64,000 nucleotides of DNA from Clostridia bacterium. Lineage in GTDB: Bacteria; Bacillota; Clostridia; TANB77; UBA1234. The stretch's first letter is position 1. Every line of letters begins with the position of its first letter. The DNA is taken from positions 184,312 through 248,311 of the forward strand of contig JAFYBZ010000014.1 of assembly GCA_017539905.1 (NCBI GenBank). Direction: 5' to 3'. This document shows positions 17,117 through 45,111 of the stretch, in pieces. The translations under genes were made by a program, and so were the position numbers. The notes below the pieces were generated by a model, which ran no database searches, was not told the origin of the DNA, and was given only the letters and a program-made list of their open reading frames with translations.

Positions 17117-17152
17117 GCTTGTTTTTTGGGACAGGTACGAAAAACATTTTTC
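17117..17152. repeat. REP-like palindromic repeat copy 1 (GCTTGTTTTTTGGGACAGGTACGAAAAACATTTTT)
   Basis: Shares the GGGACA..GT(C)C core. Near-identical to copy 2 at 18733. Confidence 0.65.
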
Positions 17153-17188
17153 TTCTTTTAATATACCCATAATTTCGCCTTTTGTCTA

Positions 17189-18118
17189 TTATTTCGAACA
17201 ATGTCTTGGTCTCTTGCTTTTCTTCTTTTCTCCCTTCTTCTCTGTCATTCCTTTTACCACCTTTTTAATATCTCTTACTTTAATCTCAAATCCAAAATCT
17301 ATATCTTCTCGTGGGTAAAATAAAACGTCTGCTCGTAACAAATCTTTTAATTTATATATGTGATAATCATAAAAACCTTTTGCTTCGTCATAAGCTTCAA
17401 AAAGACCTAAGCATTCATCGTCATCTTCATCTTTGAAGTCACTTCCTAAATATCCTACTTTTTTCTTTCCATCCAAAAATTCAATTTTTGCTTTTTGGCC
17501 TGCTACTTTATGAAGTCCTTCTTCATCCATAAATAGTAAATCTTCATCATAATTATCAAAATACACATGAAGTTCTTTTACTTTTTCTTCAGGAACTTCT
17601 GGCATAAATTCCGCCTTAAATAACTCTAATAATTTTTCTGTTTTAGAATCTTTTGTTTTCTTAACAAGATAACCTAAGTAATCGGCATCTGCAAAAGTCA
17701 TATGAAGCCCTACATCTATATCATCTTCGTCTTCAAGTTCTTTTATAGAATATGGAAGATTCAAATCATCTAATTCTTTTCGTTGCTTTTTGGTTAATTT
17801 TACTTTTTCTTTTAAAATAGGTCTTTCATATGGAATTGGATCACCATTAATTACATAGGCTTGCCTAATTAAATCTTTTGCATCATGTTCATCATCGTTG
17901 GTGATATATTCCATTAAATGTATTATATCAATGAAACAATCTCCTAATATGTTAAATATTTGATTCATCTCTTCTTCTGTTAAACAGCTTTTTTGCAAAT
18001 AATTTTCTAAATCATGTTTTAGTTTTGTTTGAAACTCTAGTTCCATTTCTTTTATATTTAACCATTTCATAATATGGTATTTGGTAGATTCCGACATTTT
18101 TAATGTGATTTTTTTCAT
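17189..18118 (-). CDS. hypothetical acidic protein (309 aa)
   Basis: ORF with GGGAG RBS. Translationally coupled to the upstream gene. No family recognised. Confidence 0.55.
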   Translation of the reverse strand: MKKITLKMSESTKYHIMKWLNIKEMELEFQTKLKHDLENYLQKSCLTEEEMNQIFNILGDCFIDIIHLMEYITNDDEHDAKDLIRQAYVINGDPIPYERPILKEKVKLTKKQRKELDDLNLPYSIKELEDEDDIDVGLHMTFADADYLGYLVKKTKDSKTEKLLELFKAEFMPEVPEEKVKELHVYFDNYDEDLLFMDEEGLHKVAGQKAKIEFLDGKKKVGYLGSDFKDEDDDECLGLFEAYDEAKGFYDYHIYKLKDLLRADVLFYPREDIDFGFEIKVRDIKKVVKGMTEKKGEKKKSKRPRHCSK

Positions 18119-18119
18119 T

Positions 18120-18698
18120 TTAACAACTCCCTATTATTACATATAGTGTTTTTTTATTTTTCTTGCAAAAGAAACTATACTCGGCGACTATGGTATCTTC
18201 ATCTATTTCATCAAATTCAATAGGCAGAACCACTTCTCTATTTTGATCTATTACACCCCATTTGTTGTTTTTACAAACTATATATTTCTTGTCGCTTTCA
18301 TCACTTCCAATTTTCCACACTGCTTTTATATGTTCATATTCAAAAGGAATTATTTCGTTTCCTTTTAAATCTATTACTCCACACTTTTGATTATTTGATT
18401 TATATACACCATGTTCTTTTTTCCACAAGTCGCCTTTATATACAACAAATGAGTCAAAATATGCATATCTTGGCTCATATAAAAACTGTGGTTTAAAAAT
18501 GATTTTATTTGTTTTGTTACTTTTTATTCCCCAGATACCTGGGTTCTCAGCTATGGCATTTCCAAAGTGTAATTTATCAAAAACAGCATTATCTTGGTCA
18601 ATATTTTCAACCAATTCATTAATCCCGCAATATTTTAAAGTAAACGATTTAAAATCAAACTTCCATTTTTTAAAAGATTTTTTTGTTTTGGTTTTCAT
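18120..18698 (-). CDS. WG-repeat-containing hypothetical protein
   Basis: Repeated KWGVID/...IPFEY motifs. Start re-called at MKTKTKK after GAGGAGG. The track's N-terminus (NVFWTCPKK) is translation of a repeat copy. Confidence 0.55.
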   Translation of the reverse strand: MKTKTKKSFKKWKFDFKSFTLKYCGINELVENIDQDNAVFDKLHFGNAIAENPGIWGIKSNKTNKIIFKPQFLYEPRYAYFDSFVVYKGDLWKKEHGVYKSNNQKCGVIDLKGNEIIPFEYEHIKAVWKIGSDESDKKYIVCKNNKWGVIDQNREVVLPIEFDEIDEDTIVAEYSFFCKKNKKTLYVIIGSC

Positions 18699-18732
18699 TA
18701 AGATTCCTCCTCTTTTTTCGTGTTTTTTTGTG

Positions 18733-18768
18733 GCTTGTTTTTTGGGGCAGGTCCAAAAAACATTTTTT
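18733..18768. repeat. REP-like repeat copy 2 (GCTTGTTTTTTGGGGCAGGTCCAAAAAACATTTTTT), in the 5' leader of the 18698 gene
   Basis: Read directly. Lies 35 nt upstream of the start codon. Confidence 0.65.
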
Positions 18769-19036
18769 ATTCCGCACAACAACGGCTTCCAAGAACCTCA
18801 ATCTTCACATCATACAAATTGCCTGTCACTTTCAACAAAGCGAGTTCCATTAATTTTTTATATCGTTTTTCTATAACACGTTTTTGATATAGTGAACTTG
18901 CTTCAAAATAAAAATTATCTTCATCTATAAGTAATGGTTTTAACTTCTTTAACCAACAATCAATTTCAACACATTCATTTTCTTGTTCCATAAGTTCTTT
19001 TGCCAACAACCAATCTAAAACTAATTCTTTATTCAT
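18767..19036 (-). CDS. hypothetical protein (89 aa)
   Basis: ORF; long 5' untranslated region upstream. Confidence 0.45.
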   Translation of the reverse strand: MNKELVLDWLLAKELMEQENECVEIDCWLKKLKPLLIDEDNFYFEASSLYQKRVIEKRYKKLMELALLKVTGNLYDVKIEVLGSRCCAE

Positions 19037-19280
19037 AATTATCTCCTCCTTTTTTTTAAAATGAGTTTTTATAGCTATATTTTTAACTCACTTAAAATTT
19101 TATCATCTCAAAGAAGGAATTTTAAAGCGAACAAAACCTTAAATTAAAATTTCAATCGTAAAGACTATATGTTAAATTCGTATGTAAACCTACAATTATT
19201 TTTGCTCATTTTTGTGCTCATAAAAAATGTGTATATTGAATATGTGAAGCAAAAAACTGTAATAATAATTTAATAATCAA

Positions 19281-19309
19281 AAAAGAGGCAACATAAGTTG
19301 CCTCTTTTT
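19281..19309. terminator. bidirectional rho-independent terminator AAAAGAGGCAAC-ataa-GTTGCCTCTTTTT
   Basis: 11-bp GC-containing stem flanked by A and T runs. Confidence 0.5.
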
Positions 19310-19310
19310 A

Positions 19311-19344
19311 ACTTGTTTCTTGGGACAGCTCCCAAAATTTTTTT
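19311..19344. repeat. REP-like repeat copy 3 (ACTTGTTTCTTGGGACAGCTCCCAAAATTTTTTTC)
   Basis: Core GGGACAGCTCCC is a perfect palindrome. Abuts the stop codon of the 19345 gene. Confidence 0.6.
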
Positions 19345-19917
19345 CTACTTTATTTCAAACCTTAAAAACTCACCATTTTTAAGCTTTGGTGTAACACTTA
19401 AGTCTGTCATCGTTTCAAGAGGAATCTTATTAAAGTAGATATACATTGGGACTAGTACTCCACCATGGGATACTATAAGAATTCTTTTCTCATGATATTT
19501 TTCAATTATCTCATCAAGAAAATCGTATATCCTTTTTGCAAATTCTTGGAATGGTTCGATTCCATTATAACCAACATTTCTTTTATAATTCCATATATCA
19601 GTTATTTCAGGATGCTCTAGTTCAAGTTCACGAATTTCTGGTTTGGTAAGTCCTTCACTATTTCCAAAACTTCTCTCCATTAGTCTTGCATCTTCTATTA
19701 TTGGAATATTAAGCGCTTGGTTAATAATATCGGCTGTCTCTCGTGCTCTTTTTAAAGGCGAGGAAATTATTAAATCAAACTTTTCTCCTTTAATAGAATC
19801 TTTAATAGCTCCTGCTTGTTCTCTTCCAGTATCATTTAATTCAATGTCTTTTTGTCCTTGAATTCGATTCTCTGCATTCCAATTAGTTTGTCCATGTCTA
19901 GTAGCCAAAACATACAT
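19345..19917 (-). CDS. histidine phosphatase (phosphoglycerate-mutase-like) family protein
   Basis: MYVLATRHGQTNWN carries the RHGxTxWN catalytic motif. Start after AAAGAGGTGA. The track's N-terminus is repeat translation. Confidence 0.7.
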   Translation of the reverse strand: MYVLATRHGQTNWNAENRIQGQKDIELNDTGREQAGAIKDSIKGEKFDLIISSPLKRARETADIINQALNIPIIEDARLMERSFGNSEGLTKPEIRELELEHPEITDIWNYKRNVGYNGIEPFQEFAKRIYDFLDEIIEKYHEKRILIVSHGGVLVPMYIYFNKIPLETMTDLSVTPKLKNGEFLRFEIK

Positions 19918-19934
19918 ATTAAGTTCACCTCTTT

Positions 19935-19968
19935 CATGTTTTTTGGGACAGGTCCAAAAGCCATTTTC
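19935..19968. repeat. REP-like repeat copy 4 (CATGTTTTTTGGGACAGGTCCAAAAGCCATTTTC) in the 5' UTR
   Basis: About 18 nt upstream of the RBS of the 19917 gene. A putative promoter (TTGCCA-18-TATAGT) lies further upstream. Confidence 0.65.
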
Positions 19969-20143
19969 TCTATTTCTCCTCATTTATTATCTTCACAATT
20001 TCTTTACTATAATAATTTGCTTTTACTTTTGGCAATATATTATATACTTCTACTTGTGTTTTTGGTTTTATTGATATTAGTTTTTCTAGTTATTCATCGT
20101 TAAATATATAATATGGTGGTTTTCTCCTCCCATATTTTAAATT

Positions 20144-20969: not shown

Positions 20970-20997
20970 GTGTTTTAGGGACAGGTCCAATATTTTC
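20970..20997. repeat. REP-like repeat copy 5 (GTGTTTTAGGGACAGGTCCAATATTTTC) in the 5' leader of the 20941 gene
   Basis: Read directly. Confidence 0.6.
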
Positions 20998-21004: not shown

Positions 21005-21307
21005 CTACCCTATACTCTTCTCTATCGTTCTACACATTTTTCTTTGAACTTCTAGATTATTATCTAGCATATTATATATTCCGTCTTCAGATAGCACTCC
21101 ACGTTTTAAATCATTTGGAAGTTTTCCTTTTTCGTCAGCTTCAAAATCATCTTTCCATTCTTTACTAGAATAATATGTAGCAAGTGTATGTATTCCATCT
21201 TGTGCTTTGTTATATTCTTTTAATGCTTTCTGCAAATTTTTAATTGCAGTATTCGAAGCATTTAATAATTCTTCCATCTCTTCTATTCTTTTAATTCTAT
21301 TATTCAT
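21005..21307 (-). CDS. DUF4298-like small protein
   Basis: YYSSKEWKDDFEADEKGKLPNDLKRGVLSEDGIYNML matches my recollection of DUF4298. Start at MNNRIKRIEE after GGGAGAGAG. Confidence 0.55.
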   Translation of the reverse strand: MNNRIKRIEEMEELLNASNTAIKNLQKALKEYNKAQDGIHTLATYYSSKEWKDDFEADEKGKLPNDLKRGVLSEDGIYNMLDNNLEVQRKMCRTIEKSIG

Positions 21308-21320: not shown

Positions 21321-21350
21321 GATTTTTGGGACACTCACCAAAATCACATC
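21321..21350. repeat. REP-like repeat copy 6 (GATTTTTGGGACACTCACCAAAATCACATC), between promoter TTGTAA-17-TAAAAT and the RBS
   Basis: Read directly. Confidence 0.6.
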
Positions 21351-25171: not shown

Positions 25172-25234
25172 TTTAAAATCCCCCTTTTATTTTAATTTTA
25201 TTCTTGATTAATACCTCCTACAATAATTCTAATC

Positions 25235-25266
25235 TACATTTTCTGGGGCACCTCCAAAAAATGTAG
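25235..25266. repeat. REP-like repeat copy 7 (CTACATTTTCTGGGGCACCTCCAAAAAATGTAG)
   Basis: 13-bp stem. Lies between the terminator and the promoter of the 25171 gene. Confidence 0.6.
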
Positions 25267-25268
25267 TA

Positions 25269-25290: not shown

Positions 25291-25296
25291 TTTTAA

Positions 25297-27075: not shown

Positions 27076-27160
27076 AATGATTCTCCCTTAAAATAATTTT
27101 GTACATCCAAAAATTATTGTATCATTATCTCAATTTCATTTCAACTTTGCATTCTTTGGT

Positions 27161-27275
27161 GCATTTTTGGGACACATCCAAAAAACCATCTTTTCCTGTC
27201 TTTTGGGAACACGTTCAAAAACCCAAAAAAGTTGGAAAAAAGTAAGTGTCCCCAAAAAGCATCCCCAAAAAGCAC
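27161..27275. repeat. compound REP-like array copy 8: three GGGACA/TGTCCC units plus a CCAAC spacer module
   Basis: gcatttttgggacacatccaaaaaacc...cttttgggaacacgttcaaaaac...gttggaaaaaagtaagtgtccccaaaaagcatccccaaaaagcac. Confidence 0.6.
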
Positions 27276-27620: not shown

Positions 27621-27662
27621 AAAGATGCTTTTTTGGGACACGTCCAAAAAAGCATCTTTTTT
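27621..27662. repeat. REP-like repeat copy 9 acting as terminator-like hairpin (AAAAGATGCTTTTTTGGGACACGTCCAAAAAAGCATCTTTTTT)
   Basis: 19-bp near-perfect inverted arms plus a T-run. One mismatch from copy 22 at 60737. Confidence 0.65.
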
Positions 27663-28258: not shown

Positions 28259-28286
28259 TTTTTTTAGGACACGTCCAAGAGTCATC
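28259..28286. repeat. degenerate REP-like copy 10 (TTTTTTAGGACACGTCCAAGAGTCATC)
   Basis: Core GGACACGTCC is retained. Confidence 0.45.
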
Positions 28287-29014: not shown

Positions 29015-29048
29015 ATAAAATCCCCCTTTTTTATGTTGTGCAATTTTT

Positions 29049-29070
29049 GACATGTCCCTAAAAATCACAC
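29049..29070. repeat. REP-like half-site copy 11 (GACATGTCCCTAAAAATCACAC)
   Basis: Matches the right half of full copies (GTGTCCCAAAAATCAC). Confidence 0.3.
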
Positions 29071-32972: not shown

Positions 32973-32986
32973 ACTCTATCTCCAGT

Positions 32987-33054
32987 GTGCTTTTTTGGGA
33001 CACTTACAAAAAGTCACCATTTTATGACTTTTTGTAAGTGTCCCAAAAAGTCAC
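32987..33054. repeat. REPIN-like inverted doublet copy 12: GTGCTTTTTTGGGACACTTACAAAAAGTCAC / GACTTTTTGTAAGTGTCCCAAAAAGTCAC
   Basis: Two REP units in inverted orientation around an 8-nt centre. Overlaps the stop codon of the 33051 gene. Confidence 0.7.
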
Positions 33055-33671
33055 GCGTTTTTCATGAAAGCTGCATCTACATACTCCGCTACATGTTCAA
33101 CAGAGTCAAAGCAATCTTCTAATTTATTATAAATAGCTGTCCACCTAATTACTTCAACAGCATCCGTTTCATTAGTGTACAAATCTCTAAGCGATTCTTG
33201 ATAAAGTTTATCGCCTTGCTCCTCCATTCCATTTAAAGCAACACATATTTTTTGTACCTCATCATAATTTTTCATATCTTTAAATGCAACTAGCAACTCA
33301 CTCATTTTATTCGTAGCAACTTCCATAAGATCAACATACTTTCCAATGTTTGGTCTCATTTCTTTTATTGCCAAAATATCAAAGTCGATCATTACCTCAT
33401 CAATGTTATCTACAACATCATCTAGCCTTCTCGTAAGAGTAATGATATCCTCTCTTTCAATTGGTGGAACAAAATCTTTTATTAAATAATTTAAAATTTT
33501 GTGTTGTGTTTTATCTGCCTCACGCTCTTTTTCATGAACTTTCTTTTCTTGCTCGCGAGATTCATCGTATGTATATGATTCAACAAGTTTTCTAAAAGTT
33601 TTTGAAATATCTATCGCACATTTTGACATGTTTATAAATTCATCATAATAGTTTAATTCTTCTTTTTTCAT
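33051..33671 (-). CDS. DUF47-family (PhoU-like) phosphate transport accessory protein
   Basis: 206 aa helical protein directly downstream of the PiT transporter gene, which is the classic pairing. Confidence 0.7.
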   Translation of the reverse strand: MKKEELNYYDEFINMSKCAIDISKTFRKLVESYTYDESREQEKKVHEKEREADKTQHKILNYLIKDFVPPIEREDIITLTRRLDDVVDNIDEVMIDFDILAIKEMRPNIGKYVDLMEVATNKMSELLVAFKDMKNYDEVQKICVALNGMEEQGDKLYQESLRDLYTNETDAVEVIRWTAIYNKLEDCFDSVEHVAEYVDAAFMKNA

Positions 33672-34736: not shown

Positions 34737-34759
34737 TCGTCTCTCCCACTTTTTTCCTT

Positions 34760-34825
34760 GGAATTTGGGGACACTTACTTTTTTCCAACTTTTTTGGTTT
34801 TTTTGGAAGTGTCCCAAAAAAGCAC
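34760..34825. repeat. REPIN-like element copy 13 (GGGGACACTTAC-TTTTTTCCAACTTTTTTGG-TTTTTTTGGAAGTGTCCCAAAAAAGCAC) in the pit leader
   Basis: Inverted REP arms GGGACACTTAC / GGAAGTGTCCC around a CCAAC spacer. Confidence 0.7.
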
Positions 34826-35114
34826 ATTCATTAACTTCTATTATACCAATCAAAATTTTTCTCTTCAACAAAGCATTTTTTGATGATTTCCTTTATAAGC
34901 ACAACTAATGTATAGTATTATGATTAATTATTTTACATTATGTTAAATTCATAGTATAATAAAATTGTACAAAGGTACAATAAAAATCAACATTTCGGAA
35001 TCAGACACATTCGATTAATCTCATATTACTAAAAAATATGAGTAGAGCATTTGTTAATTGAAATCGTGTATGGTCGCTGAGAAATGTTGTGCAAGAAAGG
35101 AAAGCATTTTTCTA

Positions 35115-35309: not shown

Positions 35310-35361
35310 AGTAGGAAAAAAAGCAAGGTGAGCTCTACACCTTGCCTTTTTTTGTTTGGAC

Positions 35362-35476
35362 TTGAGTTGGCTTTTTGGGACAATTCTATTTTTCCAACTT
35401 TTTTTGCTTTTTTGTAATTGTCCCCAAATTCCAGAAAAAGTTGGAAAAATAGCAGTGTCCCAAAAAGCCAACTCAA
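35362..35476. repeat. MITE-like compound REP element copy 14 with perfect 21-bp terminal inverted repeats (TTGAGTTGGCTTTTTGGGACA ... TGTCCCAAAAAGCCAACTCAA)
   Basis: Terminal inverted repeats at 35362-35382 and 35456-35476. The interior has two more GGGACA/TGTCCCC units and CCAAC/GTTGG modules. Confidence 0.7.
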
Positions 35477-35586
35477 TTCTAAATAATTATGTTTACCTGT
35501 TGAATTTTTCCGTATTTGGTGGTATAATTCTCGCGAAAAATAGATTTTGCACTGGTCTCTCGATTAACTAATAGGGGGTAATTCAA

Positions 35587-36909: not shown

Positions 36910-36925
36910 AAGGAGGATTTCGCCC

Positions 36926-37111: not shown

Positions 37112-37123
37112 AGGGAAAAAGCG

Positions 37124-37148
37124 ATGGCCGGGATTCTTTCCCGGCCAT
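37124..37148 (+). terminator. perfect GC-rich hairpin ATGGCCGGGA-ttctt-TCCCGGCCAT immediately after the precursor gene (partial terminator or attenuator)
   Basis: 10-bp perfect stem. A weak T-tract follows. Confidence 0.45.
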
Positions 37149-37168
37149 TGTATTATGGAGGTAGATTC

Positions 37169-37402: not shown

Positions 37403-37423
37403 ATAATTTCTCAACGATTCGCG

Positions 37424-37458
37424 AAAAAAAGACAAGGATTTTTCTCCTTGTCTTTTTT
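37424..37458 (+). terminator. rho-independent terminator GACAAGGA-tttttc-TCCTTGTC followed by TTTTTT
   Basis: Read directly. Confidence 0.5.
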
Positions 37459-37459
37459 A

Positions 37460-37492
37460 GTGCTTTTTTGGGACACTTACAAAAAGTCTCAC
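37460..37492. repeat. REP-like copy 15 (GTGCTTTTTTGGGACACTTACAAAAAGTCTCAC)
   Basis: Identical, apart from one extra G, to copy 16. Direct orientation. Confidence 0.7.
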
Positions 37493-38559: not shown

Positions 38560-38600
38560 TTAATTCTCCTATAAATAAAATCTTCCGCTGTTAACGTGTT

Positions 38601-38633
38601 GTGCTTTTTGGGGACACTTACAAAAAGTCTCAC
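38601..38633. repeat. REP-like copy 16 (GTGCTTTTTGGGGACACTTACAAAAAGTCTCAC)
   Basis: Direct repeat of copy 15. Together they bracket the single gene 37489..38559. Confidence 0.7.
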
Positions 38634-39082
38634 TTTATTTTTCTAATAAAATCTTCCAATCCCTCTGGCATATTTTCTTTTGAAATCATAAAGCCTTGAT
38701 TATTTGCAATCATCAAATAAAAATTTGTTTTTGTCTCGATGATTTCGCTTAGTTTTTCATAAGGAACTTTGGCTTCTCCGCCATCGTGTTTTTCATACAA
38801 GTAGTCCTTATAAAACTCATACGAAACATCAACATTTTGCATCAATTTGTTTGAATTAAAAACTCTGTGCACGCCTATCTTTAAGGCTATATAAAACAAG
38901 ATTGGATAAATAATCGCGAAAATAACTAGCACATTATTTTGTAATAAATATCCACTTACAAAAAGACAAATACAAGCAATTATCGAAAGCAAAACTATAT
39001 GTCTCTTTTTAATTAGCGCCCAGTTAAATTTTTTATATTCATCAATTGTAAATTTAGTTGTCGTTTTAAATAAATAATCCAT
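38630..39082 (-). CDS. YcxB-like membrane protein
   Basis: Start at MDYLFKTTTKF after GGAGAA. Two transmembrane helices then a PH-like domain. The track's N-terminus is repeat translation. Confidence 0.5.
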   Translation of the reverse strand: MDYLFKTTTKFTIDEYKKFNWALIKKRHIVLLSIIACICLFVSGYLLQNNVLVIFAIIYPILFYIALKIGVHRVFNSNKLMQNVDVSYEFYKDYLYEKHDGGEAKVPYEKLSEIIETKTNFYLMIANNQGFMISKENMPEGLEDFIRKIK

Positions 39083-39094
39083 CTTTTCTCCTTC

Positions 39095-39161
39095 TGCTTT
39101 TTGGGGACACTTACTTTTTTCCAACTTTTTCGGGTTTTTTGGACGTGTCCCAAAAAATCAC
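39095..39161. repeat. REPIN-like element copy 17 (..GGGGACACTTAC-TTTTTTCCAACTTTTTCGGG-TTTTTTGGACGTGTCCCAAAAAATCAC)
   Basis: Lies between the exonuclease stop and the RBS of the 39082 gene. Confidence 0.7.
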
Positions 39162-39745
39162 TTAAATAATTTTTTGAATTCATCAAAGCTATCATATTCA
39201 CTGCAAATTGATTTGCACATTTTCTTATAGACCTTGTTAGTTAAATCGCAATCATTTAGCGCTCTATGTTTGTTACGCACCTTTATTCCATAGTAATCCG
39301 TTAAATCATCTAATTTATGATGATCCAAATCCTTGATGTGTTTTCTTGCAATTTTTAAAGTGTCAACAAAATCATTTGTCAAAGGTTCATCTAAAACCTC
39401 TTCGAAATTATCATACAAAAAATTTACATCAAAATTTACGTTGTGACCAAGTATAATATCGTCTTCTAAAAAATCCCTGAAATCATACAAAACATCTTCG
39501 AGCTCATCGCCCTCATCCTCAACCATCCTTGTAGTAATTCCTGTTAGATTACTTATAAAATACGGAATCCTTTCGTGCGGATTAATAAGTCTCGAAAATG
39601 TGTCAATTTCTTTTCCATCTCTAACCTTAATTGCACTTATTTCAATTATTTTATTATAACTTGGGCTCATGCCTGTTGTTTCAATATCAAGCACCGTATA
39701 ATCCTTAAGCTTTTCCACGATGCTTTTGCCTTTCAAATCTCTCAT
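39158..39745 (-). CDS. DnaQ-like DEDDh 3'-5' exonuclease
   Basis: Exo I LDIETTG, Exo II HNVNFD, Exo III HRALNDC. Start at MRDLKGK after AAGGAAA. The alternative start is 39763. Confidence 0.75.
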   Translation of the reverse strand: MRDLKGKSIVEKLKDYTVLDIETTGMSPSYNKIIEISAIKVRDGKEIDTFSRLINPHERIPYFISNLTGITTRMVEDEGDELEDVLYDFRDFLEDDIILGHNVNFDVNFLYDNFEEVLDEPLTNDFVDTLKIARKHIKDLDHHKLDDLTDYYGIKVRNKHRALNDCDLTNKVYKKMCKSICSEYDSFDEFKKLFK

Positions 39746-39763
39746 TTTTATTTCCTTTTCCAT

Positions 39764-40777
39764 CTAGTTATTATCAAAGTATTCACTAATTTTCTGTTCA
39801 AACTTATTTTTACTTCCAATTCCTTTGATACTATTTACTTTTTTATCAATTACGCAGAACAATTCTCCATTTGAGTTAATTGATCCTAATAAGCTTGGGA
39901 AAGCAGTTAGCATTATAAGTAGAAAACAAACTAAAAAAACTGTCATGCAAACTATAATAAGATATTTTGATAAATCCAAATTAAATCTTGCTACAAACAT
40001 GCTTAAAATCAATATAACTGGCGCAAGTATTAGTCCAAGAGCAATGAGGAAAAAAGTTGCATCTTTTACCTTTAAGTTTGCGCCACTTACATTCCCATTT
40101 ACATCATTAATATAATAAGTGTATGGTTTTCCATTTTGCTCAGCAGTAACAATCCAAACTGGATAATAATATCTATTAGTCTCTGTTACCTCATAATCAA
40201 TTCTTGATTTATAGCTTCTTCCATCCCCACTTAGTTGGTTACTAGTAAACACGATTTTTTGAATTGAATCTAAAATCGCTTTATCTCCTTTTCGATGTGC
40301 TTTTTCTTTTTCACTTAATTCAATACTACTTGTGTAGATACTATCTGCTACAGAGCTACACTCTACTACTCCATCGTTATCAACAAAATCTAAAAATTCA
40401 CAATCAGAATAATTTGAATAATCAATCATTGGCTTATAGCTTTTATCTGTAAATGGAGCTATCACTTTAAATTGATTTATATCAATATCTTTGTGATTTG
40501 CACAAAGCATTAAACTAAATTTTGATTCAGTATCTGCTTCATAATAAGCTGGAACCGGGCCGTTTTTTCCTCCATTAAGCATTTTCTCATAAAACGAATT
40601 TGCTTTGGATTCAATGATGTATTTATAGAATGGAACATATACTTTTTTTGCACTTGTCATTTTTATATCACGTGCATTTAGCGCCCATCCATTATGACAG
40701 ATAAATCTTTTAGCTTTTTTCTTTGCCCATCTTTCAGTATGTGCAAATTTTATTATTCCATCAACATTTTGCATCAT
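39764..40777 (-). CDS. membrane protein with C-terminal transmembrane helices, translationally coupled to the exonuclease
   Basis: 337 aa. Its stop abuts the exonuclease ORF. Confidence 0.5.
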   Translation of the reverse strand: MMQNVDGIIKFAHTERWAKKKAKRFICHNGWALNARDIKMTSAKKVYVPFYKYIIESKANSFYEKMLNGGKNGPVPAYYEADTESKFSLMLCANHKDIDINQFKVIAPFTDKSYKPMIDYSNYSDCEFLDFVDNDGVVECSSVADSIYTSSIELSEKEKAHRKGDKAILDSIQKIVFTSNQLSGDGRSYKSRIDYEVTETNRYYYPVWIVTAEQNGKPYTYYINDVNGNVSGANLKVKDATFFLIALGLILAPVILILSMFVARFNLDLSKYLIIVCMTVFLVCFLLIMLTAFPSLLGSINSNGELFCVIDKKVNSIKGIGSKNKFEQKISEYFDNN

Positions 40778-40830
40778 TTTCCCCCTTAATTTCGCTACTT
40801 ATTTTATCATTTTTTTGCCTATTTTTCAAT

Positions 40831-40869
40831 AAAAAAAGCTTTTTTGGAACACGTCCAAAAAAGCATCAC
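40831..40869. repeat. REP-like copy 18 (AAAAAAAGCTTTTTTGGAACACGTCCAAAAAAGCATCAC)
   Basis: Read directly. Confidence 0.6.
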
Positions 40870-41339
40870 ACACAAATTTCAGCTAGTTGAAATTCAATCA
40901 CTTTCTTCAAATCTTCTAAACTCACTTCAACTTGATATCCGATCTTTCCTGCGCTAAAAATTATTGTATCAAAATTTGAAGCAGAACTATCAATTGTTGT
41001 TTTAAAAAACTTCTTCATTCCGATTGGTGAACATCCGCCGTGAATATATCCCGTTAACATGAGCAAATCTTTTTGCTTTAACATCTCTATGTTTTTTTCT
41101 CCAACAGCTTTCGCAGCCTTTTTTAAATCAAGTTCCTCTGCAACAGGAATCACAAATACATAGTGTTCTCTTGAATGACCAGTCGTAACCAAAGTTTTAA
41201 AAACTTGCGCCTCATTTTGATCTAGCACCTTCGCAACCTCCACTCCCGAGATAGCATCCGTACTTGCATAACTATATGATTTATATTCAATTTTATTCGC
41301 ATCCAAAATACGCATCACGTTCGTTTTTTCTTGTTTCAT
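40866..41339 (-). CDS. ybaK: YbaK/Cys-tRNA(Pro) deacylase-like protein
   Basis: MKQEKTNVMRILD...HGGCSPIGMKK. The start is uncertain because of a weak RBS. The track start lies inside a repeat. Confidence 0.6.
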   Translation of the reverse strand: MKQEKTNVMRILDANKIEYKSYSYASTDAISGVEVAKVLDQNEAQVFKTLVTTGHSREHYVFVIPVAEELDLKKAAKAVGEKNIEMLKQKDLLMLTGYIHGGCSPIGMKKFFKTTIDSSASNFDTIIFSAGKIGYQVEVSLEDLKKVIEFQLAEICV

Positions 41340-41372
41340 CCTAAACTTCACCGCCATCATTATACCACAAAG

Positions 41373-41478
41373 TGCTTTTTTGGGACACGTCCATTTTTCC
41401 AACTATTTCTGGAATTTTGGGACACTTCCATTTTTCCAACTTTTTCTGGTTTTTTGTATGTGTCCCAAAAATCCAACC
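41373..41478. repeat. compound REP array copy 19, 3' flank of the RAYT gene
   Basis: gtgcttttttgggacacgtccatttttccaactatttctgg aattttgggacacttccatttttccaactttttctgg ttttttgtatgtgtcccaaaaatccaacc. Two direct units plus one inverted. Confidence 0.7.
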
Positions 41479-41483
41479 CAAAA

Positions 41484-42248
41484 TTACAATTTCACTTTAT
41501 AATTCTCATCAAGTATTGCTTTAGAAACACTAAGCCAATTGATAATATCTTTTTGTTTCAATTTGCATTCTTGATTCAAATATACAATCAATTTTTGCAA
41601 TACTGCTCGAACGCTAAAGATTTCAATCAAAGAATGATTATACTCCGCGATAAAACTTCTAACGCCATCTTCAAAGTACTCATGACTAATCTTTGTCGAA
41701 TCAAGATCCATAAACACTCTGTCATAAGCTTCGTCTATCGCTTTCAAATAATTCACATTTTCTCCGAACACTTCTTTCAAAATCTCACACTTTGCACAAC
41801 CTTGTCCACGCAAATAATCTTGATACGATGAGTACGAATAAGCCTCACAACAGGTTGCTATTCCTGCCTTTACAGGATTGTTGTGAATATACTTTATGCA
41901 ATTTACTAAATGCGACATTTCATAAATCGGTTCCAATTGATATCTATTTCTAAATACAACTCCTACTCTATCTTCGCTTTTATTATAAAAGTTAGCAAAA
42001 TTTTGATTCACTGATTTCATAAATTGTCCAAAGCATTCGATATCTTTCACATAGAATAAAAAATGTGCGTGATTATTCATCATGCAATAAGCAAGCAAAT
42101 CAAATTCTTTGTAGTGTGATTCACTCTTTATACTCTTTAAATAATAATTTAGATTTTTGGGATTATCAAAAACATATTCTTTATTTACACCTTGAACCAT
42201 AACATGAATGAATGGTGTATTAATTTTTTTGCGTGCAACACGTGACAT
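41484..42248 (-). CDS. HUH-Y1 transposase-like protein, REP-associated tyrosine transposase (RAYT/TnpA-REP)-like
   Basis: HUH motif MMNNHAHFLFYV and Tyr motif YIHNNPVKAGI, as in IS200/RAYT Y1 enzymes. GGAGG RBS. Flanked on both sides by compound repeat arrays. Confidence 0.7.
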   Translation of the reverse strand: MSRVARKKINTPFIHVMVQGVNKEYVFDNPKNLNYYLKSIKSESHYKEFDLLAYCMMNNHAHFLFYVKDIECFGQFMKSVNQNFANFYNKSEDRVGVVFRNRYQLEPIYEMSHLVNCIKYIHNNPVKAGIATCCEAYSYSSYQDYLRGQGCAKCEILKEVFGENVNYLKAIDEAYDRVFMDLDSTKISHEYFEDGVRSFIAEYNHSLIEIFSVRAVLQKLIVYLNQECKLKQKDIINWLSVSKAILDENYKVKL

Positions 42249-42364
42249 TAGAAATCCTCCTTATATGCAAAAAGGGAGTTAGATTCATACTCAATCTAAC
42301 CCCCACACTTATTTTACAGCTTCATATTACCATTATCTATAAAAATTGCAATACCTTTTTACTT

Positions 42365-42469
42365 GGAATTTTGGGACAGGTCCAAAATTCCAACTTTTCT
42401 TGGATTTTTGTAAGTGTCCCAAAATCCCAACTTTTTCTGGATTTTTGTAAGTGTCCCCAAAAGTCACAC
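42365..42469. repeat. compound REP array copy 20, 5' flank of the RAYT gene
   Basis: ggaattttgggacaggtccaaaattccaacttttcttgg atttttgtaagtgtcccaaaatcccaactttttctgg atttttgtaagtgtccccaaaagtcacac. Confidence 0.7.
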
Positions 42470-42730
42470 TTTATCGCCCATGGCAAGAAGATCATTCATG
42501 GTCAAACTGCCCCACATTCTTTCCATAAGCCGCACAGCATCATACGTAATCACGCCATACTTGAAATAGTGAATCACAATGTAGCCATCATGCGCACCCA
42601 TCGTTGTGCCGATGAGTTTATCATCCAGATATACATTGTATTCCAGATAACTTCCATCACTGAGCTGCGTCCGACTCACCAGCAAATTCTGCTGATCGTC
42701 TTTGTTTTTCGAACCAAACTTTAGAACCAC
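42464..42730 (-). CDS. small hypothetical protein (88 aa), GC-rich
   Basis: Last gene of the 44924-42464 operon. Its stop overlaps the repeat. Confidence 0.4.
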   Translation of the reverse strand: MVLKFGSKNKDDQQNLLVSRTQLSDGSYLEYNVYLDDKLIGTTMGAHDGYIVIHYFKYGVITYDAVRLMERMWGSLTMNDLLAMGDKV

Positions 42731-42756
42731 CAGCTGTCACTCCCTTACGATGTTTT

Positions 42757-43848
42757 CTATCTATTATTCTTTTGCTTCGGAATTTCGGGAAGCTGTCGTC
42801 CAACAATATTAATGTCTTTAAGCAGTTCCGGATCTTTGCTCATCATAATACTTCCATGCCCACGCAAATTCAAAACATAAGCAACTCGTTCAAAATTTCC
42901 GTTATAGAATTTTTTCACAGCACGCTCGATTTCATCGACTTCTTCAATTGCTCCGCACGGCACTATCCTATCCGTAAACAACGCATTTTTAATATAGCAA
43001 TGCGAATGAATCATAAAGTTGATATTCGGAAACATCTTATAAAGTCGGACCTGAATCGGCGTATCGACCGATGGCTTATTTTCACCGATGTAATAAATTT
43101 TTCCATCCTTCATATAAACCGGCACAAAATCCTGCGCGCTAATGAATTCTTTATTCACATTTCTTCGACTTACAAAAATCAAATCGCCTTGCCTAAAAGA
43201 AGGAAATCCTTTTGGACATCTGAACGATGCATTGCCCAAAAATCTTTTAACATCTTTTGTCTGGAAAATTGCCTCAGCAAAAACATTTGCATAGTTTCGA
43301 ACAATGCCCAAAAAATCTTCATTAAAAGTATCGTCACTCAAATTTAAATCTTCAAGTTTGATATCAGAAGAAATTGTCGGCTCACGAGTAATCGTAGATA
43401 AAAATTCAAGTCGCTTTTGCATCTTTTCTGCGCAACTAATGATGCTCGCCCCATCGTACCAAAGATTTCCGAGCGGATCAAAAAGTCTCATGTTGAAAAC
43501 TTTACCCTTCTCACTAAACTCAATTGTGAGGTTCGCCTTCGCTTCAAGCGACCGCTGAAGTAATTCTTCAAAAGTATATTCACCATTATTTCTTTTCGAT
43601 GTAACAAGCAATGCCTTATAATTTATCTCTTTGACATTTCTAACCTTCGGCATATCATTCGGCACATTTGCCCACCAAAGAACAACATCAAAATAAATAC
43701 TCGTTTCAATTATCCGATGCAAATCAAAATAGTATCCACCGTTATAAACCGTGACATACGAAAACTCTCTCGCAAATTTTTCAACTACTCTTGATTTCTT
43801 TCCACCTTGAAAATCCCATGTTCCGCCAACAAGAAGAATGCTGTTCAT
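42757..43848 (-). CDS. two-domain protein with C-terminal class II aldolase/adducin-like domain
   Basis: MIHSHCY...NLRGHGSIMM carries the HSH and GHG zinc-ligand motifs. N-terminal domain unknown. Confidence 0.55.
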   Translation of the reverse strand: MNSILLVGGTWDFQGGKKSRVVEKFAREFSYVTVYNGGYYFDLHRIIETSIYFDVVLWWANVPNDMPKVRNVKEINYKALLVTSKRNNGEYTFEELLQRSLEAKANLTIEFSEKGKVFNMRLFDPLGNLWYDGASIISCAEKMQKRLEFLSTITREPTISSDIKLEDLNLSDDTFNEDFLGIVRNYANVFAEAIFQTKDVKRFLGNASFRCPKGFPSFRQGDLIFVSRRNVNKEFISAQDFVPVYMKDGKIYYIGENKPSVDTPIQVRLYKMFPNINFMIHSHCYIKNALFTDRIVPCGAIEEVDEIERAVKKFYNGNFERVAYVLNLRGHGSIMMSKDPELLKDINIVGRQLPEIPKQKNNR

Positions 43849-43865
43849 TTTAACTCCCCCTTTTA

Positions 43866-44924
43866 TTACGGCTTAAAGTCAAAATCAAAATAAGTATAGT
43901 AGCCTCCTTTTGGCAAAGCTAAATAATCCTCAATCTTTTGATTTGCAAGATAATCAAGATTTGAAATTCGAGTAATGCCATTGTAATAGAATGCGAGCGG
44001 ATTAACATACCGAGTTTTTACGGATGTATTAATGCAATAAACTCCTTCAACAGGACAATCGCTTCGATACACCTTATCCGCCTTTTGAAATTTTCGAAAA
44101 CTCTCTTCCAAATACGGATCACCGCAATGCAAGATTTTTTCGATCACTTCTTTTTCTGATAGAGTATATAAATCATCAATTAATAAATATCCACGCTGAT
44201 TCATCGCCTTGCACATATCCGCAATAAACTGCATAACTGTTCTATCTTTGTCACTTACCCATTCCGGCCAAATCTTTGCAGCAAAATGAATATACTCCGC
44301 ACAAATTTCTTTGTGCCTAAAAGTAAACTCATCAAGTCCGTCTTCATTTTTCGCAATCGTAATATCATTATAAACTCTTCGAATAGTATCTAAATCCCAA
44401 ATTCTAAAAAAAGAAAGCCCACTTGAAAAAGTATATTCGAATCTGTCTGCCGAAAGCCGCGGTGTCTCATTATCCGCCAAAGGATAAATTTTATAGTCCT
44501 TCACTTCTTCAAGCTTAATTCCGTCACGTTTTAAAAGCGTCATTATTTCTATGGAATTCTTTATAAAATCTGTCGTTTTTTCTTCGGTCGATTCCTGCGT
44601 TAAAGAATCGCCATTCATAAAATCAATGCAATGCTTAAAAACCGGTGTCGCAATATCATGGAAAAGTCCGGCCAAAGTCTGCTTTTTGTCATGCGTAAAA
44701 TGCCACAAAATGAGTGCAACACCCACACTATGCTCAAGATTAGAATACCAATACCGAATGTTATAACACCCAGAGTAATCCGTTCCGCAACTGATACTGA
44801 TTTTACCTATGCGCTGCATCTCCGGTGTGTTGATATATTCCATCATCCATTCCGGGAACTCAGGCGACAAAATCCGAAAATATTCACGAATTTCCTCGTT
44901 CAAACTTTGTAAGTACGAATTCAT
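43866..44924 (-). CDS. HD-domain phosphohydrolase
   Basis: HSVGVALILWHF...AGLFHDIATPVFKH. Start at MNSYLQSL after AAAGGAGG. Confidence 0.65.
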   Translation of the reverse strand: MNSYLQSLNEEIREYFRILSPEFPEWMMEYINTPEMQRIGKISISCGTDYSGCYNIRYWYSNLEHSVGVALILWHFTHDKKQTLAGLFHDIATPVFKHCIDFMNGDSLTQESTEEKTTDFIKNSIEIMTLLKRDGIKLEEVKDYKIYPLADNETPRLSADRFEYTFSSGLSFFRIWDLDTIRRVYNDITIAKNEDGLDEFTFRHKEICAEYIHFAAKIWPEWVSDKDRTVMQFIADMCKAMNQRGYLLIDDLYTLSEKEVIEKILHCGDPYLEESFRKFQKADKVYRSDCPVEGVYCINTSVKTRYVNPLAFYYNGITRISNLDYLANQKIEDYLALPKGGYYTYFDFDFKP

Positions 44925-45033
44925 CTTATTCCTGCCTCCTTTATTAATTGAAAAGGATTTTCTCAAATAATCCACTTTGCGAGAGCATAATACCACGGAT
45001 TTGCCGATTTTTCAACCGATTTTGTGGTTTTAG

Positions 45034-45111
45034 GGCGGGTGCTTTTTGGGGACACTGCTAAAAAACCAGGAAATCCTGGTTTTTTAGCAGTGTCCCCAAA
45101 AAGCACCCGCC
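45034..45111. repeat. perfect 78-bp palindromic REPIN copy 21 (38-bp arms GGCGGGTGCTTTTTGGGGACACTGCTAAAAAACCAGGA with a 2-nt centre)
   Basis: Both arms are identical as reverse complements, suggesting recent duplication or mobilisation. Confidence 0.75.

What the first reader, a model, noticed from the sequence alone, without database searches (positions are those of the whole stretch)
17117..45111. Dense family of GGGACA...TGTCCC palindromic repeats (REP/REPIN-like) filling nearly every intergenic gap over about 28 kb
The window holds at least 22 copies of a 25-45 bp imperfect palindrome, TTTTGGGACA-N2-(T)GTCCCAAAA. Many are headed by GTGC and tailed by GCAC. Several copies are joined pairwise in inverted orientation around a TTTTTCCAACTTTTT-type spacer (32987, 34760, 35362, 39095, 45034). 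This is the REPIN architecture described for enterobacterial and Pseudomonas REPs. The GTGC head is reminiscent of the conserved GTAG tetranucleotide of E. coli REPs. Copies are absent from the BREX block at 1-14 kb and almost absent from 46-64 kb. Here the elements are AT-rich, whereas classical REPs are GC-rich hairpins. To my knowledge REP/RAYT systems are reported mainly in Proteobacteria, so a low-GC Firmicute instance would be unusual.
Basis: partly seen in the sequence, partly recalled or inferred. Interest (0 to 1): 0.85.

Follow-up and report, generated by a model that had tools for sequence, protein, structure and literature searches.

The report
Hairpin repeats with resident RAYT transposase
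About 35 copies of a short AT-rich hairpin repeat fill the gaps between genes around a single gene for a REP-type (RAYT/TIRYT) tyrosine transposase in an uncultured gut Clostridia genome, so a repeat-plus-enzyme system known mainly from Proteobacteria also runs through a large Firmicute lineage.

Summary
The repeat family is real. The core TTTTGGGACAC-N-T(C/A)CAAAA (up to 3 mismatches) occurs 30 times against 0.21 expected. With in-register array units I count 35 copies in 24 clusters between 15,991 and 60,765. They occupy 19 of 24 intergenic gaps between 15.9 and 45.4 kb.

ORF 41484-42248 (-) encodes a 254-aa HUH/Y1 protein. Its best matches are the NCBIfam model 'REP-associated tyrosine transposase' and PDB 4ER8 (E. 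coli TnpA-REP). Inverted repeat arrays flank it on both sides.

The gene-plus-inverted-flank layout recurs in uncultured Clostridia MAGs: 48 of 69 related loci examined, out of 245 matching stretches found among species-representative genomes. GGGAC is invariant, the rest of the core tracks the protein tree, and outer stems change in a compensatory way.

The core fits the GGGGWSAS motif of the TIRYT/'TIRtron' class (Group 1 RAYT, subclass 2.1). Published surveys report few or no REP-like repeats for that class.

Verdict: a REP/REPIN-like system of the TIRYT type, a new member of a known kind. Genome-wide spread in this organism and enzymatic mobilisation remain untested.

The parts
41484..42248 (-). 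RAYT/TIRYT-type HUH-Y1 tyrosine transposase gene (254 aa). HUH is H59-A-H61 (NNHAHFLF). The catalytic Tyr is Y119 in CIKYIHNNPVKAG, followed by a YSSY motif and a helical C-terminal extension of about 100 aa.
   Evidence: Pfam PF01797 E=7e-6. NCBIfam NF047646 'REP-associated tyrosine transposase' E=7e-17, 61.6 bits, below the 80-bit cut-off. Invariant residues in the 37-sequence alignment A1. The only PDB sequence hit is 4ER8. AF2 model pLDDT 85; top Foldseek hit 4er8_A, E=3e-5.
41368..41475 (.). Repeat array on the 3' flank of the transposase gene: three 37-nt units (+,+,-). The nearest core lies 13 nt after the stop codon.
   Evidence: (family D2)
42359..42470 (.). Repeat array on the 5' flank of the transposase gene: three 37-nt units (+,-,-). 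The nearest core lies 120 nt before the start codon. The far end abuts the TGA of an 88-aa ORF (42464-42730).
32983..33060 (.). Inverted doublet (REPIN-like) forming a long hairpin, 2 nt after the stop of 33051-33671.
   Evidence: DNA fold -29.1 kcal/mol, z -10.3
34758..34830 (.). Inverted doublet with the CCAAC spacer, upstream of the PHO4 transporter gene.
   Evidence: z -2.3
35352..35486 (.). Three units (+,-,-) forming a 55-nt-arm palindrome.
   Evidence: I1, 89% complementary; fold -44.1 kcal/mol, z -12.6
39095..39160 (.). Inverted doublet with the CCAAC spacer, 2 nt after the stop of 39158-39763.
   Evidence: Logan contigs L002 and L003 end here.
45028..45117 (.). Near-perfect 44-nt-arm inverted doublet.
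   Evidence: I7, 95%; fold -49.9 kcal/mol, z -15. Contig L003 starts inside it.
27155..27261 (.). Array of three units (+, degenerate +, -).
27621..27662 (+). Best-formed singlet hairpin, AAAGATGCTTTTTTGGGACACGTCCAAAAAAGCATCTTTTTT, 11 nt after the stop of 27661-28245.
   Evidence: flagged terminator-like on both strands; fold z -8.3
60737..60778 (+). Outlying singlet, 98% identical to 27621-27662, 20 nt after the stop of 60786-61196.
40832..40873 (+). Singlet 5 nt after the stop of the tRNA_edit gene 40866-41228.
37460..37492 (+). Singlet GTGCTTTTTTGGGACACTTACAAAAAGTCTCAC. Its tail supplies the TGA stop of 37489-38559.
38601..38633 (+). Singlet of the same subfamily. Its tail supplies the TGA stop of 38630-39082.
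17114..17155 (+). Singlet of the GGGACAGGTCC subfamily.
   Evidence: (D3/D4)
18730..18771 (+). Singlet of the GGGACAGGTCC subfamily (GGGGCAGG variant), 8 nt after the stop of 18767-19036.
19314..19344 (+). Singlet 8 nt after the stop of 19345-19983, next to an unrelated terminator hairpin at 19280-19309.
19937..19967 (+). Singlet. It overlaps the first codons of ORF 19345-19983 as drawn; that start is probably called too far upstream.
20974..20992 (+). Degenerate singlet 12 nt after the stop of 21005-21307.
21324..21342 (+). Singlet upstream of 21005-21307.
25237..25267 (+). Singlet with the compensated outer stem CTACA/TGTAG, next to an unrelated terminator at 25268-25291.
   Evidence: z -5
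28262..28280 (+). Degenerate singlet 5 nt after the stop of 28286-29053.
29044..29062 (-). The only singlet in the opposite orientation.
15991..16009 (+). Degenerate outermost copy on the left.
   Evidence: (D4)

Best explanation
This is a REP/REPIN-like population of non-autonomous hairpin repeats, together with the single resident gene for the HUH/Y1 tyrosine transposase that most likely makes and maintains them. The enzyme is a RAYT of the TIRYT / Group 1 / subclass 2.1 type.

The basic unit is a hairpin:
- a variable outer stem;
- a T5-6 run pairing with an A5-6 run;
- the conserved GGGAC(A/G)(C/G) at the 5' side of the top of the hairpin.

Units occur as singlets, as inverted doublets that fold into long hairpins, and as 37-nt tandem units. 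The gene itself sits between inverted arrays, a 'REPtron/TIRtron' layout.

Proposed mechanism (inferred, by analogy with E. coli TnpA-REP and IS200/IS605 TnpA). The enzyme binds the folded unit on single-stranded DNA and reads the GGGAC motif. It then cuts and rejoins through a 5'-phosphotyrosyl link at Y119. This copies, excises or multiplies units, while the gene stays at a fixed chromosomal site.

Copies persist mainly just after stop codons. There a hairpin plus T-run is tolerated, and it probably acts as a terminator or mRNA 3'-end stabiliser.

Shown here: the repeat family, the intact catalytic motifs and fold, the inverted flanks, conservation of the layout across species, co-variation of core with protein clade, compensatory stems, and one presence/absence difference between related genomes.

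Inferred: enzymatic mobilisation, the active strand, and any host function.
For: (1) Repeat family far above chance and intergenic.

(2) The ORF at 41484-42248 matches 'REP-associated tyrosine transposase' better than generic IS200. It has the HUH motif and the Y---NP motif that PMC6006769 gives as the class 2 signature. Its only PDB sequence hit and best fold hit are 4ER8 TnpA-REP.

(3) Inverted arrays lie 13 nt after the stop and 120 nt before the start.

(4) The layout recurs in related genomes:
- 245 stretches in GTDB species-representative genomes encode a relative, all with Clostridia-type labels among the 80 listed.
- Of 69 loci with an intact ORF, 48 have GGGAC on the + strand within 300 nt upstream and on the - strand within 300 nt downstream. 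A further 13 have it downstream only.
- Best inverted pairs read, for example, TTTTGGGGACACCTTCCAAAAA.

(5) Copies of each locus's own motif more than 500 nt from the gene number 126 in 881 kb, against 1 in shuffles.

(6) Core classes (GGGACAC, GGGACGGAG, GGGACAGT/G, GGGACGTTCC) follow the protein NJ tree. In MAGs with two such genes, each gene has its own core.

(7) Outer arms pair at 3.64 of 6 positions against 2.59 +/- 0.07 when partners are permuted. There are 52 distinct left arms among 87 well-paired copies.

(8) The gene is syntenic over about 20 kb at 76-94% nucleotide identity in nine species-level genomes, so it is vertically inherited rather than hopping.

(9) A 97-nt doublet is present in L027 and L022 but missing from L023 at the same site. 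A 32-nt array unit differs between L064 and L049.

(10) The core fits GGGGWSAS of TIRYT flanks (PMC3733652).
Against: - No biochemical or population evidence that this enzyme moves these repeats. All contigs of this organism that I could fetch are one strain, 99.98-100% identical.
- The NCBIfam score is below the curated cut-off (61.6 against 80 bits).
- The canonical REP 5' GT[AG]G foot is absent.
- Copies are strongly clustered: 34 of 36 cores seen in about 81 kb lie within 30 kb on one side of the gene. Genome-wide dispersal in this organism is therefore not shown.
- In several related MAGs only the two flanking copies are present.
- The one filled/empty comparison does not give symmetric, interpretable cut sites.
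Confidence: 0.8

Rival explanations
1. The gene plus its inverted flanks is an autonomous IS-like element (a mobile 'TIRtron'). The other copies are solo ends or decayed remnants of past insertions, not a population of non-autonomous elements.
For: Group 1 RAYTs are the most IS-like of the RAYT groups, with some duplicates and some plasmid copies (PMC5581495). Some related MAGs carry two genes or only the two flanking copies.
Against: There is one gene copy in about 81 kb but 35 or more repeat units, none with gene remnants. The gene is syntenic across nine species-level genomes. Where a MAG has two genes, they are divergent and each has its own core. Copies are compact 25-45-nt hairpins placed 2-46 nt after stop codons.
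Confidence: 0.07
2. The repeats are host transcription terminators or operators that resemble each other through selection for function. The neighbouring Y1 gene is coincidental.
For: 14 of 22 clusters lie within 50 nt downstream of a stop codon (P about 2e-4). Several are flagged terminator-like. 15 of 16 singlets share one orientation.
Against: A conserved non-pairing GGGACAC core is not needed for termination. Unrelated conventional terminators sit right beside copies at 19280-19309, 25268-25291 and 37425-37458. Copies also occur in 5' and divergent regions, as doublets and as tandem arrays. The gene-flanking layout and core/protein co-variation recur in dozens of species. 13 of 14 gaps at 45.4-64 kb lack the repeat, and several of them hold unrelated terminator-like hairpins.
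Confidence: 0.05
3. The Y1 protein is fully domesticated and no longer moves DNA. On this view the repeats are its binding sites, read through the C-terminal helical domain, for example in chromosome structuring or regulation. They would then spread by recombination, gene conversion or slippage rather than transposition.
For: The protein has a conserved helical C-terminal extension of about 100 aa with weak HTH-type Pfam hints. The gene is vertically inherited and syntenic. Copies are locally clustered and subfamilies are locally homogeneous, for example GGGACAGGTCC at 17-21 kb. Gene-sized segments are bracketed by repeat doublets in related loci, which points to recombination at repeats.
Against: The HUH residues and Tyr are invariant in all 37 aligned homologues, which argues for retained catalysis. 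Copies sit in many unrelated intergenic contexts with sharp boundaries.
Confidence: 0.08

Closest known systems
TIRtrons / TIRYT (TIR-associated tyrosine transposases; Di Nocera et al. 2013, PMC3733652). These correspond to Group 1 RAYT (Bertels et al. 2017, PMC5581495) and TnpA-Y1 subclass 2.1 (Quentin et al. 2018, PMC6006769).
   Same: - A long RAYT-like protein (254 aa; subclass 2.1 median 238) with an 'SS' tail motif and a further helical C-terminal domain.
- HUH-to-Tyr spacing of 60 aa.
- The gene is flanked by inverted repeats at fixed distances.
- The flank motif GGGGACAC/GGGACAC fits GGGGWSAS.
- Repeat copies occur as singlets, dimers and clusters.
- One to two genes per genome.

   Different: - Described in Proteobacteria, Acidobacteria and similar groups; neither 'Firmicutes' nor 'Clostridi' occurs in the main text of that paper.
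- Published surveys found few flanking 16-mers (about 12 per replicon) or no REP-like structures for this class. Here the units are clear hairpins at very high local density.
- The family runs through many uncultured Clostridia MAGs.
- HUH is NHAH and the Tyr motif is YIHNNP, against NHVH/NH[YF]H and YIELNP/Y[IV]HLNP listed for 2.1.
- Assignment to 2.1 was not tested with the authors' HMMs.
Classical REP/REPIN-RAYT systems (E. coli TnpA-REP, PDB 4ER8; Pseudomonas Group 2/3 RAYTs)
   Same: - A single vertically inherited HUH/Y1 gene flanked by its own repeats.
- Intergenic hairpin repeats, and inverted doublets forming long hairpins.
- Each enzyme has its own repeat type.
- Closest solved structure by both sequence and fold.
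- Position close to stop codons. From my own knowledge, many E. coli REPs also lie within about 15 nt of a stop codon.
   Different: - No 5' GT[AG]G foot.
- The conserved motif is at the top of the hairpin rather than at its foot.
- AT-rich stems made of T/A runs instead of GC-rich stems.
- The protein is about 90 aa longer.
- 37-nt tandem units.
- Copy number and genome-wide spread are unknown here.
IS200/IS605 family (IS608, ISDra2 TnpA)
   Same: HUH/Y1 fold (Foldseek hits 2a6o, 2vjv, 2xm3), hairpin recognition on ssDNA, and Pfam PF01797.
   Different: The Y---NP motif replaces Y---Q. There is no TnpB. The gene is single-copy and syntenic. The repeats are dispersed without the gene.
Small interspersed repeats of Firmicutes: BOX, RUP and SPRITE of Streptococcus pneumoniae (from my own knowledge; not tested here)
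   Same: Short, modular, intergenic, hairpin-forming and terminator-like repeats in a low-GC Gram-positive genome.
   Different: As far as I know, those have no dedicated Y1 transposase gene flanked by them. No sequence relationship was looked for, and Rfam gave no hit to the repeats.

Membership tests
RAYT / TnpA-REP (class 2 TnpA-Y1) | HUH motif and catalytic Tyr in a Y---NP motif | tested here: met
   H59-A-H61 and Y119-IHN-N123-P124 are invariant in 37 homologues. The class 2 signature Y---NP is taken from PMC6006769.
RAYT / TnpA-REP (class 2 TnpA-Y1) | Sequence or profile membership | tested here: inconclusive
   NCBIfam NF047646 E=7e-17 but 61.6 bits, below the 80-bit cut-off. Pfam Y1_Tnp 26.6 bits, above the 23-bit cut-off. 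The only PDB sequence hit is 4ER8, E=6e-4. JGI names some homologues RayT.
RAYT / TnpA-REP (class 2 TnpA-Y1) | Fold of TnpA-REP | tested here: met
   AF2 model pLDDT 85.2. Top Foldseek PDB hit is 4er8_A, E=3.2e-5, target-normalised TM 0.67, ahead of the IS608 and ISDra2 TnpA structures.
RAYT / TnpA-REP (class 2 TnpA-Y1) | Gene flanked by inverted copies of a repeat that is also dispersed elsewhere (REPtron layout) | tested here: met
   Window. Related loci: 48 of 69 with both flanks, and 126 distant copies against 1 in shuffles.
RAYT / TnpA-REP (class 2 TnpA-Y1) | Low copy number and vertical inheritance of the gene | tested here: met
   One copy in about 81 kb here. Mostly one locus per MAG among the 80 listed, with four MAGs carrying two divergent genes. 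Syntenic over 20 kb in nine species-level genomes. Whole genomes were not available.
Canonical REP | 5' GT[AG]G tetranucleotide at the foot of a GC-rich imperfect palindrome | tested here: not met
   Aligned copies show no conserved GTAG/GTGG foot. The heads are GTGC, GATGC, CTTGT or TGGAA, and the stems are T/A runs. The invariant element is GGGAC near the loop.
REPIN | Two units in inverted orientation that fold into one long hairpin | tested here: met
   32983-33060 (z -10.3), 35352-35486 (z -12.6) and 45028-45117 (z -15.0). The doublets with a CCAAC spacer fold only weakly (z -1.8 to -3.4).
REPIN | Evidence that the units replicate or move within genomes | tested here: inconclusive
   One 97-nt doublet present/absent between L027/L022 and L023. 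One 32-nt unit differs between L064 and L049. No strain variation was available for this organism.
TIRYT / TIRtron (Group 1 RAYT, subclass 2.1) | Flanking inverted repeats carrying GGGGWSAS at a roughly fixed distance from the gene | tested here: met
   GGGGACAC in L005-L020 at about 84-142 nt upstream and mostly 6-54 nt downstream. In the window the core is GGGACAC, or GGGGACAC in 8 copies. More distant clades use GGGACGG or GGGACAG, which fit only partly.
TIRYT / TIRtron (Group 1 RAYT, subclass 2.1) | Long protein with an 'SS' proximal tail motif and a distal HTH-like C-terminal domain | tested here: inconclusive
   254 aa; invariant Y136, S139-S140 (YSSY); five predicted helices at 188-252. 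Pfam HTH hits are weak and seen in only 1-2 of 37 members. Key motifs differ in detail from Table 1 of PMC6006769.
TIRYT / TIRtron (Group 1 RAYT, subclass 2.1) | Assignment by the published subclass HMMs or MCL clustering | not testable with these tools

The most novel reading that the evidence does not exclude
Group 1/TIRYT-type RAYTs are currently described as single-copy genes without REPIN populations. In a large clade of uncultured gut and rumen Clostridia they may instead run a vertically inherited REPIN-like system. Its features would be an AT-rich hairpin read through a loop-side GGGAC motif, repeat cores that co-diverge with the enzyme, and spread that is mainly short-range. The short range is suggested by copies piling up over about 26 kb on the side of the gene that the replication fork reaches next. 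This would be the first such system characterised in Firmicutes, and a natural case for testing fork-coupled local transposition by a Y1 enzyme.
Probability: 0.4. Interest if true: 0.65.

Novelty: new member of a known kind. Interest (0 to 1): 0.5.

Why it matters
- **Lineage.** It extends the enzyme-plus-repeat partnership (RAYT/TIRYT with REP-like elements) into low-GC Firmicutes. The family is large: 854 protein clusters at 50% identity with E<=1e-30, and 245 matching stretches among GTDB species-representative genomes.
- **Published view.** It bears on the statements that Group 1 / subclass 2.1 enzymes have few or no associated repeats.
- **A recognition rule to test.** The comparative set of enzyme clades with matched core variants (GGGACAC, GGGACGGAG, GGGACAGT, GGGACGTTCC) makes the recognition rule directly testable.
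- **Practical points.** These repeats break short-read assemblies of gut MAGs: contigs end at 39101 and 45063, and many homologue contigs are about 1 kb. They sit against stop codons, where they could affect termination and 3'-end stability. They also bracket gene-sized insertions or deletions in relatives.

Tried and rejected
1. The literal consensus GGGACANNTGTCCC gives 0 matches. I replaced it with the in-register core.
2. Rfam and tRNA scans show nothing at the repeats. The only hit is a SAM riboswitch at 14987-15073.
3. I scanned the metagenome collection with TTTTGGGACANNTNCAAAA to look for dispersal. 115 of 120 loci have a single match, come from unrelated environments with varied GC, and none has a RAYT homologue.
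4. Strain comparison for mobility failed. L001-L004 are the same strain as the window.
5. Synteny between the window and related loci is almost nil, so filled and empty sites could not be compared for this genome. It worked only within other clades.
6. Walking beyond the window gave only about 7 kb on the left and 10 kb on the right. That added one further copy on the left and none on the right. One look-up failed because my ORF start was wrong.
7. GTGC as a GTAG analogue is rejected, because the outer stem varies.
8. A CRISPR-like reading of the 37-nt periodicity is rejected. The units abut each other, with no spacers, and there are only 2-3 per array.
9. A downstream/upstream asymmetry of copies in pooled related loci is weak: 0.16 against 0.12 per kb, my arithmetic.
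10. Two of the literature searches were swamped by unrelated hits.

Full report
**Observation.**
The window is about 30% G+C with negative GC skew throughout. GGGACA occurs 38 times against 8.8 expected.

Reading the sites shows the real unit: TTTTTGGGACAC-N-T(C/A)CAAAAA. As a 19-nt pattern with up to 3 mismatches it occurs 30 times against 0.21 expected. Five further in-register units inside arrays bring the count to 35, in 24 clusters from 15,991 to 60,765.

- 33 of 35 cores lie outside my curated coding set, which covers 85% of the window.
- 19 of 24 intergenic gaps between 15.9 and 45.4 kb hold a copy, against 0 of 2 to the left and 1 of 14 to the right.

**Anatomy.**
Singlets are hairpins built from three parts: a variable outer stem, a T5-6 run pairing with an A5-6 run, and GGGACAC at the 5' side of the top. 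An example is AAAGATGCTTTTTTGGGACACGTCCAAAAAAGCATCTTTTTT, with z -8.3 as DNA.

Subfamilies exist:
- cttgtt-TTTTGGGACAGGTCC at 17-21 kb;
- gatgctt...aagcatc at 27631, 40842 and 60747;
- gtgctt...agtc(tc)ac at 32993, 37466 and 38607.

Inverted doublets at 32983, 35352 and 45028 fold into long hairpins (z -10 to -15). Doublets with a TTTTTCCAACTTTTT spacer pair only through the GGGACAC/GTGTCCC arms. Units also repeat head to tail every 37 nt (family D2).

- 14 of 22 clusters lie within 50 nt downstream of a stop codon (P about 2e-4).
- 15 of 16 singlets share one orientation.
- Several copies touch or supply the stop codon.
- Some copies look like intrinsic terminators. However, unrelated conventional terminators sit immediately beside others, so the family is not simply 'the terminators'.

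**The missed gene.**
ORF 41484-42248 (-) encodes a 254-aa protein.
- It hits Pfam Y1_Tnp (E=7e-6).
- It hits the NCBIfam model 'REP-associated tyrosine transposase' more strongly (E=7e-17, 61.6 bits, below the 80-bit cut-off).
- It has HUH (H59-A-H61) and the catalytic Tyr in CIKYIHNNPVKAG.
- A profile of 37 homologues finds only 4ER8, E. coli TnpA-REP, among PDB sequences.
- An AlphaFold model (pLDDT 85) has 4er8_A as its best Foldseek match, ahead of IS608 and ISDra2 TnpA.

The two most complex repeat arrays flank this gene in inverted orientation. One lies 13 nt after the stop and the other 120 nt before the start.

**Organism.**
Exact copies of window proteins are NCBI MAG proteins labelled 'Clostridia bacterium', on a contig of 296,582 nt. 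All contigs I could fetch that carry the transposase are the same strain. Two Logan contigs end at 39101 and one of them starts at 45063, both inside repeats.

**Relatives.**
The protein has 387 homologues of about 250 aa, matching over the full length, in uncultured Clostridia from gut and rumen. Many sit on contigs of about 1 kb. A full HMMER scan gives 854 representative clusters at E<=1e-30.

In GTDB species-representative genomes, 245 stretches encode a relative, and I held 80 loci. Of 69 loci with an intact ORF:
- 48 have GGGAC on the + strand within 300 nt upstream and on the - strand within 300 nt downstream;
- 13 have it downstream only.

By my own estimate, a chance GGGAC in 300 nt of this composition has a probability of about 0.04. 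The best inverted pairs read TTTTGGGGACACCTTCCAAAAA and similar.

Copies of each locus's own 19-mer reach 3.4-5.0 per kb within 250 nt of the gene. Between 0.5 and 10 kb away they average 0.14 per kb, or 126 copies, against one in shuffled sequence.

- Core classes (GGGACAC; GGGACGGAG; GGGACAG-G/T; GGGACGTTCC) follow the protein NJ tree. MAGs with two genes have a different core at each.
- Outer arms pair far better with their own partner than with permuted partners (3.64 against 2.59 +/- 0.07 of 6). They use many different sequences, so the hairpin itself is conserved.
- The gene is syntenic over about 20 kb at 76-94% identity in nine species-level genomes. That argues for vertical inheritance at a fixed site.
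- Within that set, a 97-nt doublet is present in L027 and L022 but reduced to a short 'double-foot' remnant in L023. An array unit differs between L064 and L049. Gene-sized segments are bracketed by doublets.

**Comparison with the literature.**
Di Nocera et al. 2013 (PMC3733652) described RAYT-like genes flanked by terminal inverted repeats ('TIRtrons', enzymes 'TIRYT').
- Many of those TIRs share GGGGWSAS.
- Some form moderately abundant families arranged as dimers or clusters.
- Neither 'Firmicutes' nor 'Clostridi' occurs in the main text of that paper.

Quentin et al. 2018 (PMC6006769) equate TIRYT with subclass 2.1, which is Bertels' Group 1.
- Its members are long proteins with an 'SS' tail motif and an HTH-like C-terminus.
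- The paper states that no REP-like sequences were found near these genes.

Bertels et al. 2017 (PMC5581495) found Group 1 in 21 classes, including Clostridia, with flanking 16-mers occurring only about 12 times.

Our core GGGGACAC/GGGACAC fits GGGGWSAS. The protein's length, its HUH-Tyr spacing of 60 aa and its YSSY motif fit 2.1. The exact HUH and Tyr motifs differ from the table, and I could not run the authors' HMMs.

The canonical REP feature, a 5' GT[AG]G foot, is absent. The system therefore works like a REP/REPIN-RAYT system and is best filed with the TIRYT/TIRtron class, not with classical GTAG REPs.

**Mechanism.**
I commit to the following. The resident HUH/Y1 enzyme recognises the folded unit on single-stranded DNA through the GGGAC motif. 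It cuts and rejoins via Y119, generating and maintaining singlets, doublets and tandem units, while the gene stays put. Copies survive mainly just after stop codons, where they probably serve as terminator or 3'-end stabiliser hairpins.

The anatomy, the conservation, the co-variation and one presence/absence event are shown. Catalysis, the active strand and any host function are inferred from E. coli TnpA-REP and IS200/IS605 (PMC8266576 abstract; PMC6006769).

**Unresolved.**
In about 81 kb of contiguous sequence (the window plus extensions), 34 of 36 cores lie between 16 and 45 kb. That is mostly on the low-coordinate side of the gene. Single copies lie at about -3 kb and at 60.7 kb, and none lies in the BREX/GmrSD defence island.

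Genome-wide spread in this organism is therefore not demonstrated. Local, possibly fork-directed, spread is an open possibility. The pooled relatives show only a weak asymmetry, by my arithmetic.

**Verdict.**
The finding is real and its main interpretation is right in kind. The decisive part, the transposase gene, was overlooked, and the correct class is TIRYT-type rather than GTAG-REP. It is a new member of a known kind, in a lineage and at a density not reported before.

Noticed in passing
window 1207-14056 (-), continuing left of the window (L207:12546-18526): Defence island: type 1 BREX genes (BrxA, BrxB, BrxC, Eco57I-like PglX, PglZ) followed by GmrSD. Beyond the window come AAA_21, DUF8370 and Hypoth_Ymh genes. 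The island carries no copy of the repeat, which fits recent acquisition.
   Followed up: partly
window 14987-15073 (-): SAM riboswitch (Rfam RF00162, 53.3 bits) in front of the gene 14139-14996.
   Followed up: no
window 25002-25207 and 28836-29050: The 5' parts of two genes without Pfam hits (24455-25171 and 28286-29068) are 71-77% identical direct repeats, so the genes are probably paralogues with a shared N-terminal region.
   Followed up: no
window 30000-46000: G+C rises to 0.35-0.42 against 0.29-0.31 elsewhere, peaking over the radical SAM/SPASM gene 35587-36909. The repeat-dense zone overlaps this block but is wider than it.
   Followed up: no
window 19280-19309, 25268-25291, 37425-37458: Conventional GC-stem terminator hairpins, unrelated in sequence to the repeat, lie directly next to repeat copies. 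The copies therefore sit between the stop codon and the terminator, or just after the terminator.
   Followed up: partly
window 37485-37491, 38626-38632, 33051-33053, 42464-42466: Stop codons (TGA) of four ORFs lie inside the outer stem of a repeat copy (tail ...GTCTCAC or head GTGAC). The repeat thus overlaps the very end of the reading frame.
   Followed up: partly
L076:7874-9940 vs L058:10755-10787; L056:8344-9849 vs L048/L055: In related MAGs, gene-sized segments of 1.5-2 kb are present or absent between two copies of the local repeat doublet. This suggests recombination or insertion at repeat sites.
   Followed up: no
L165, L166, L136, L146, L190, L192, L200, L203 (metagenome scan): An unrelated repeat, ATGTTAAAAATTTTTTGGGACATTTTCAAAAATGCTTGACA, recurs near contig ends in higher-GC metagenome contigs. 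It matched the search pattern by chance.
   Followed up: no
window 39764-40777, 45355-47106, 25297-27075, 17189-18118: Several sizeable ORFs (309-592 aa) have no Pfam family and no credible NCBIfam match (the only hit is a sub-threshold GroES match at E=0.0075 for 25297-27075).
   Followed up: no
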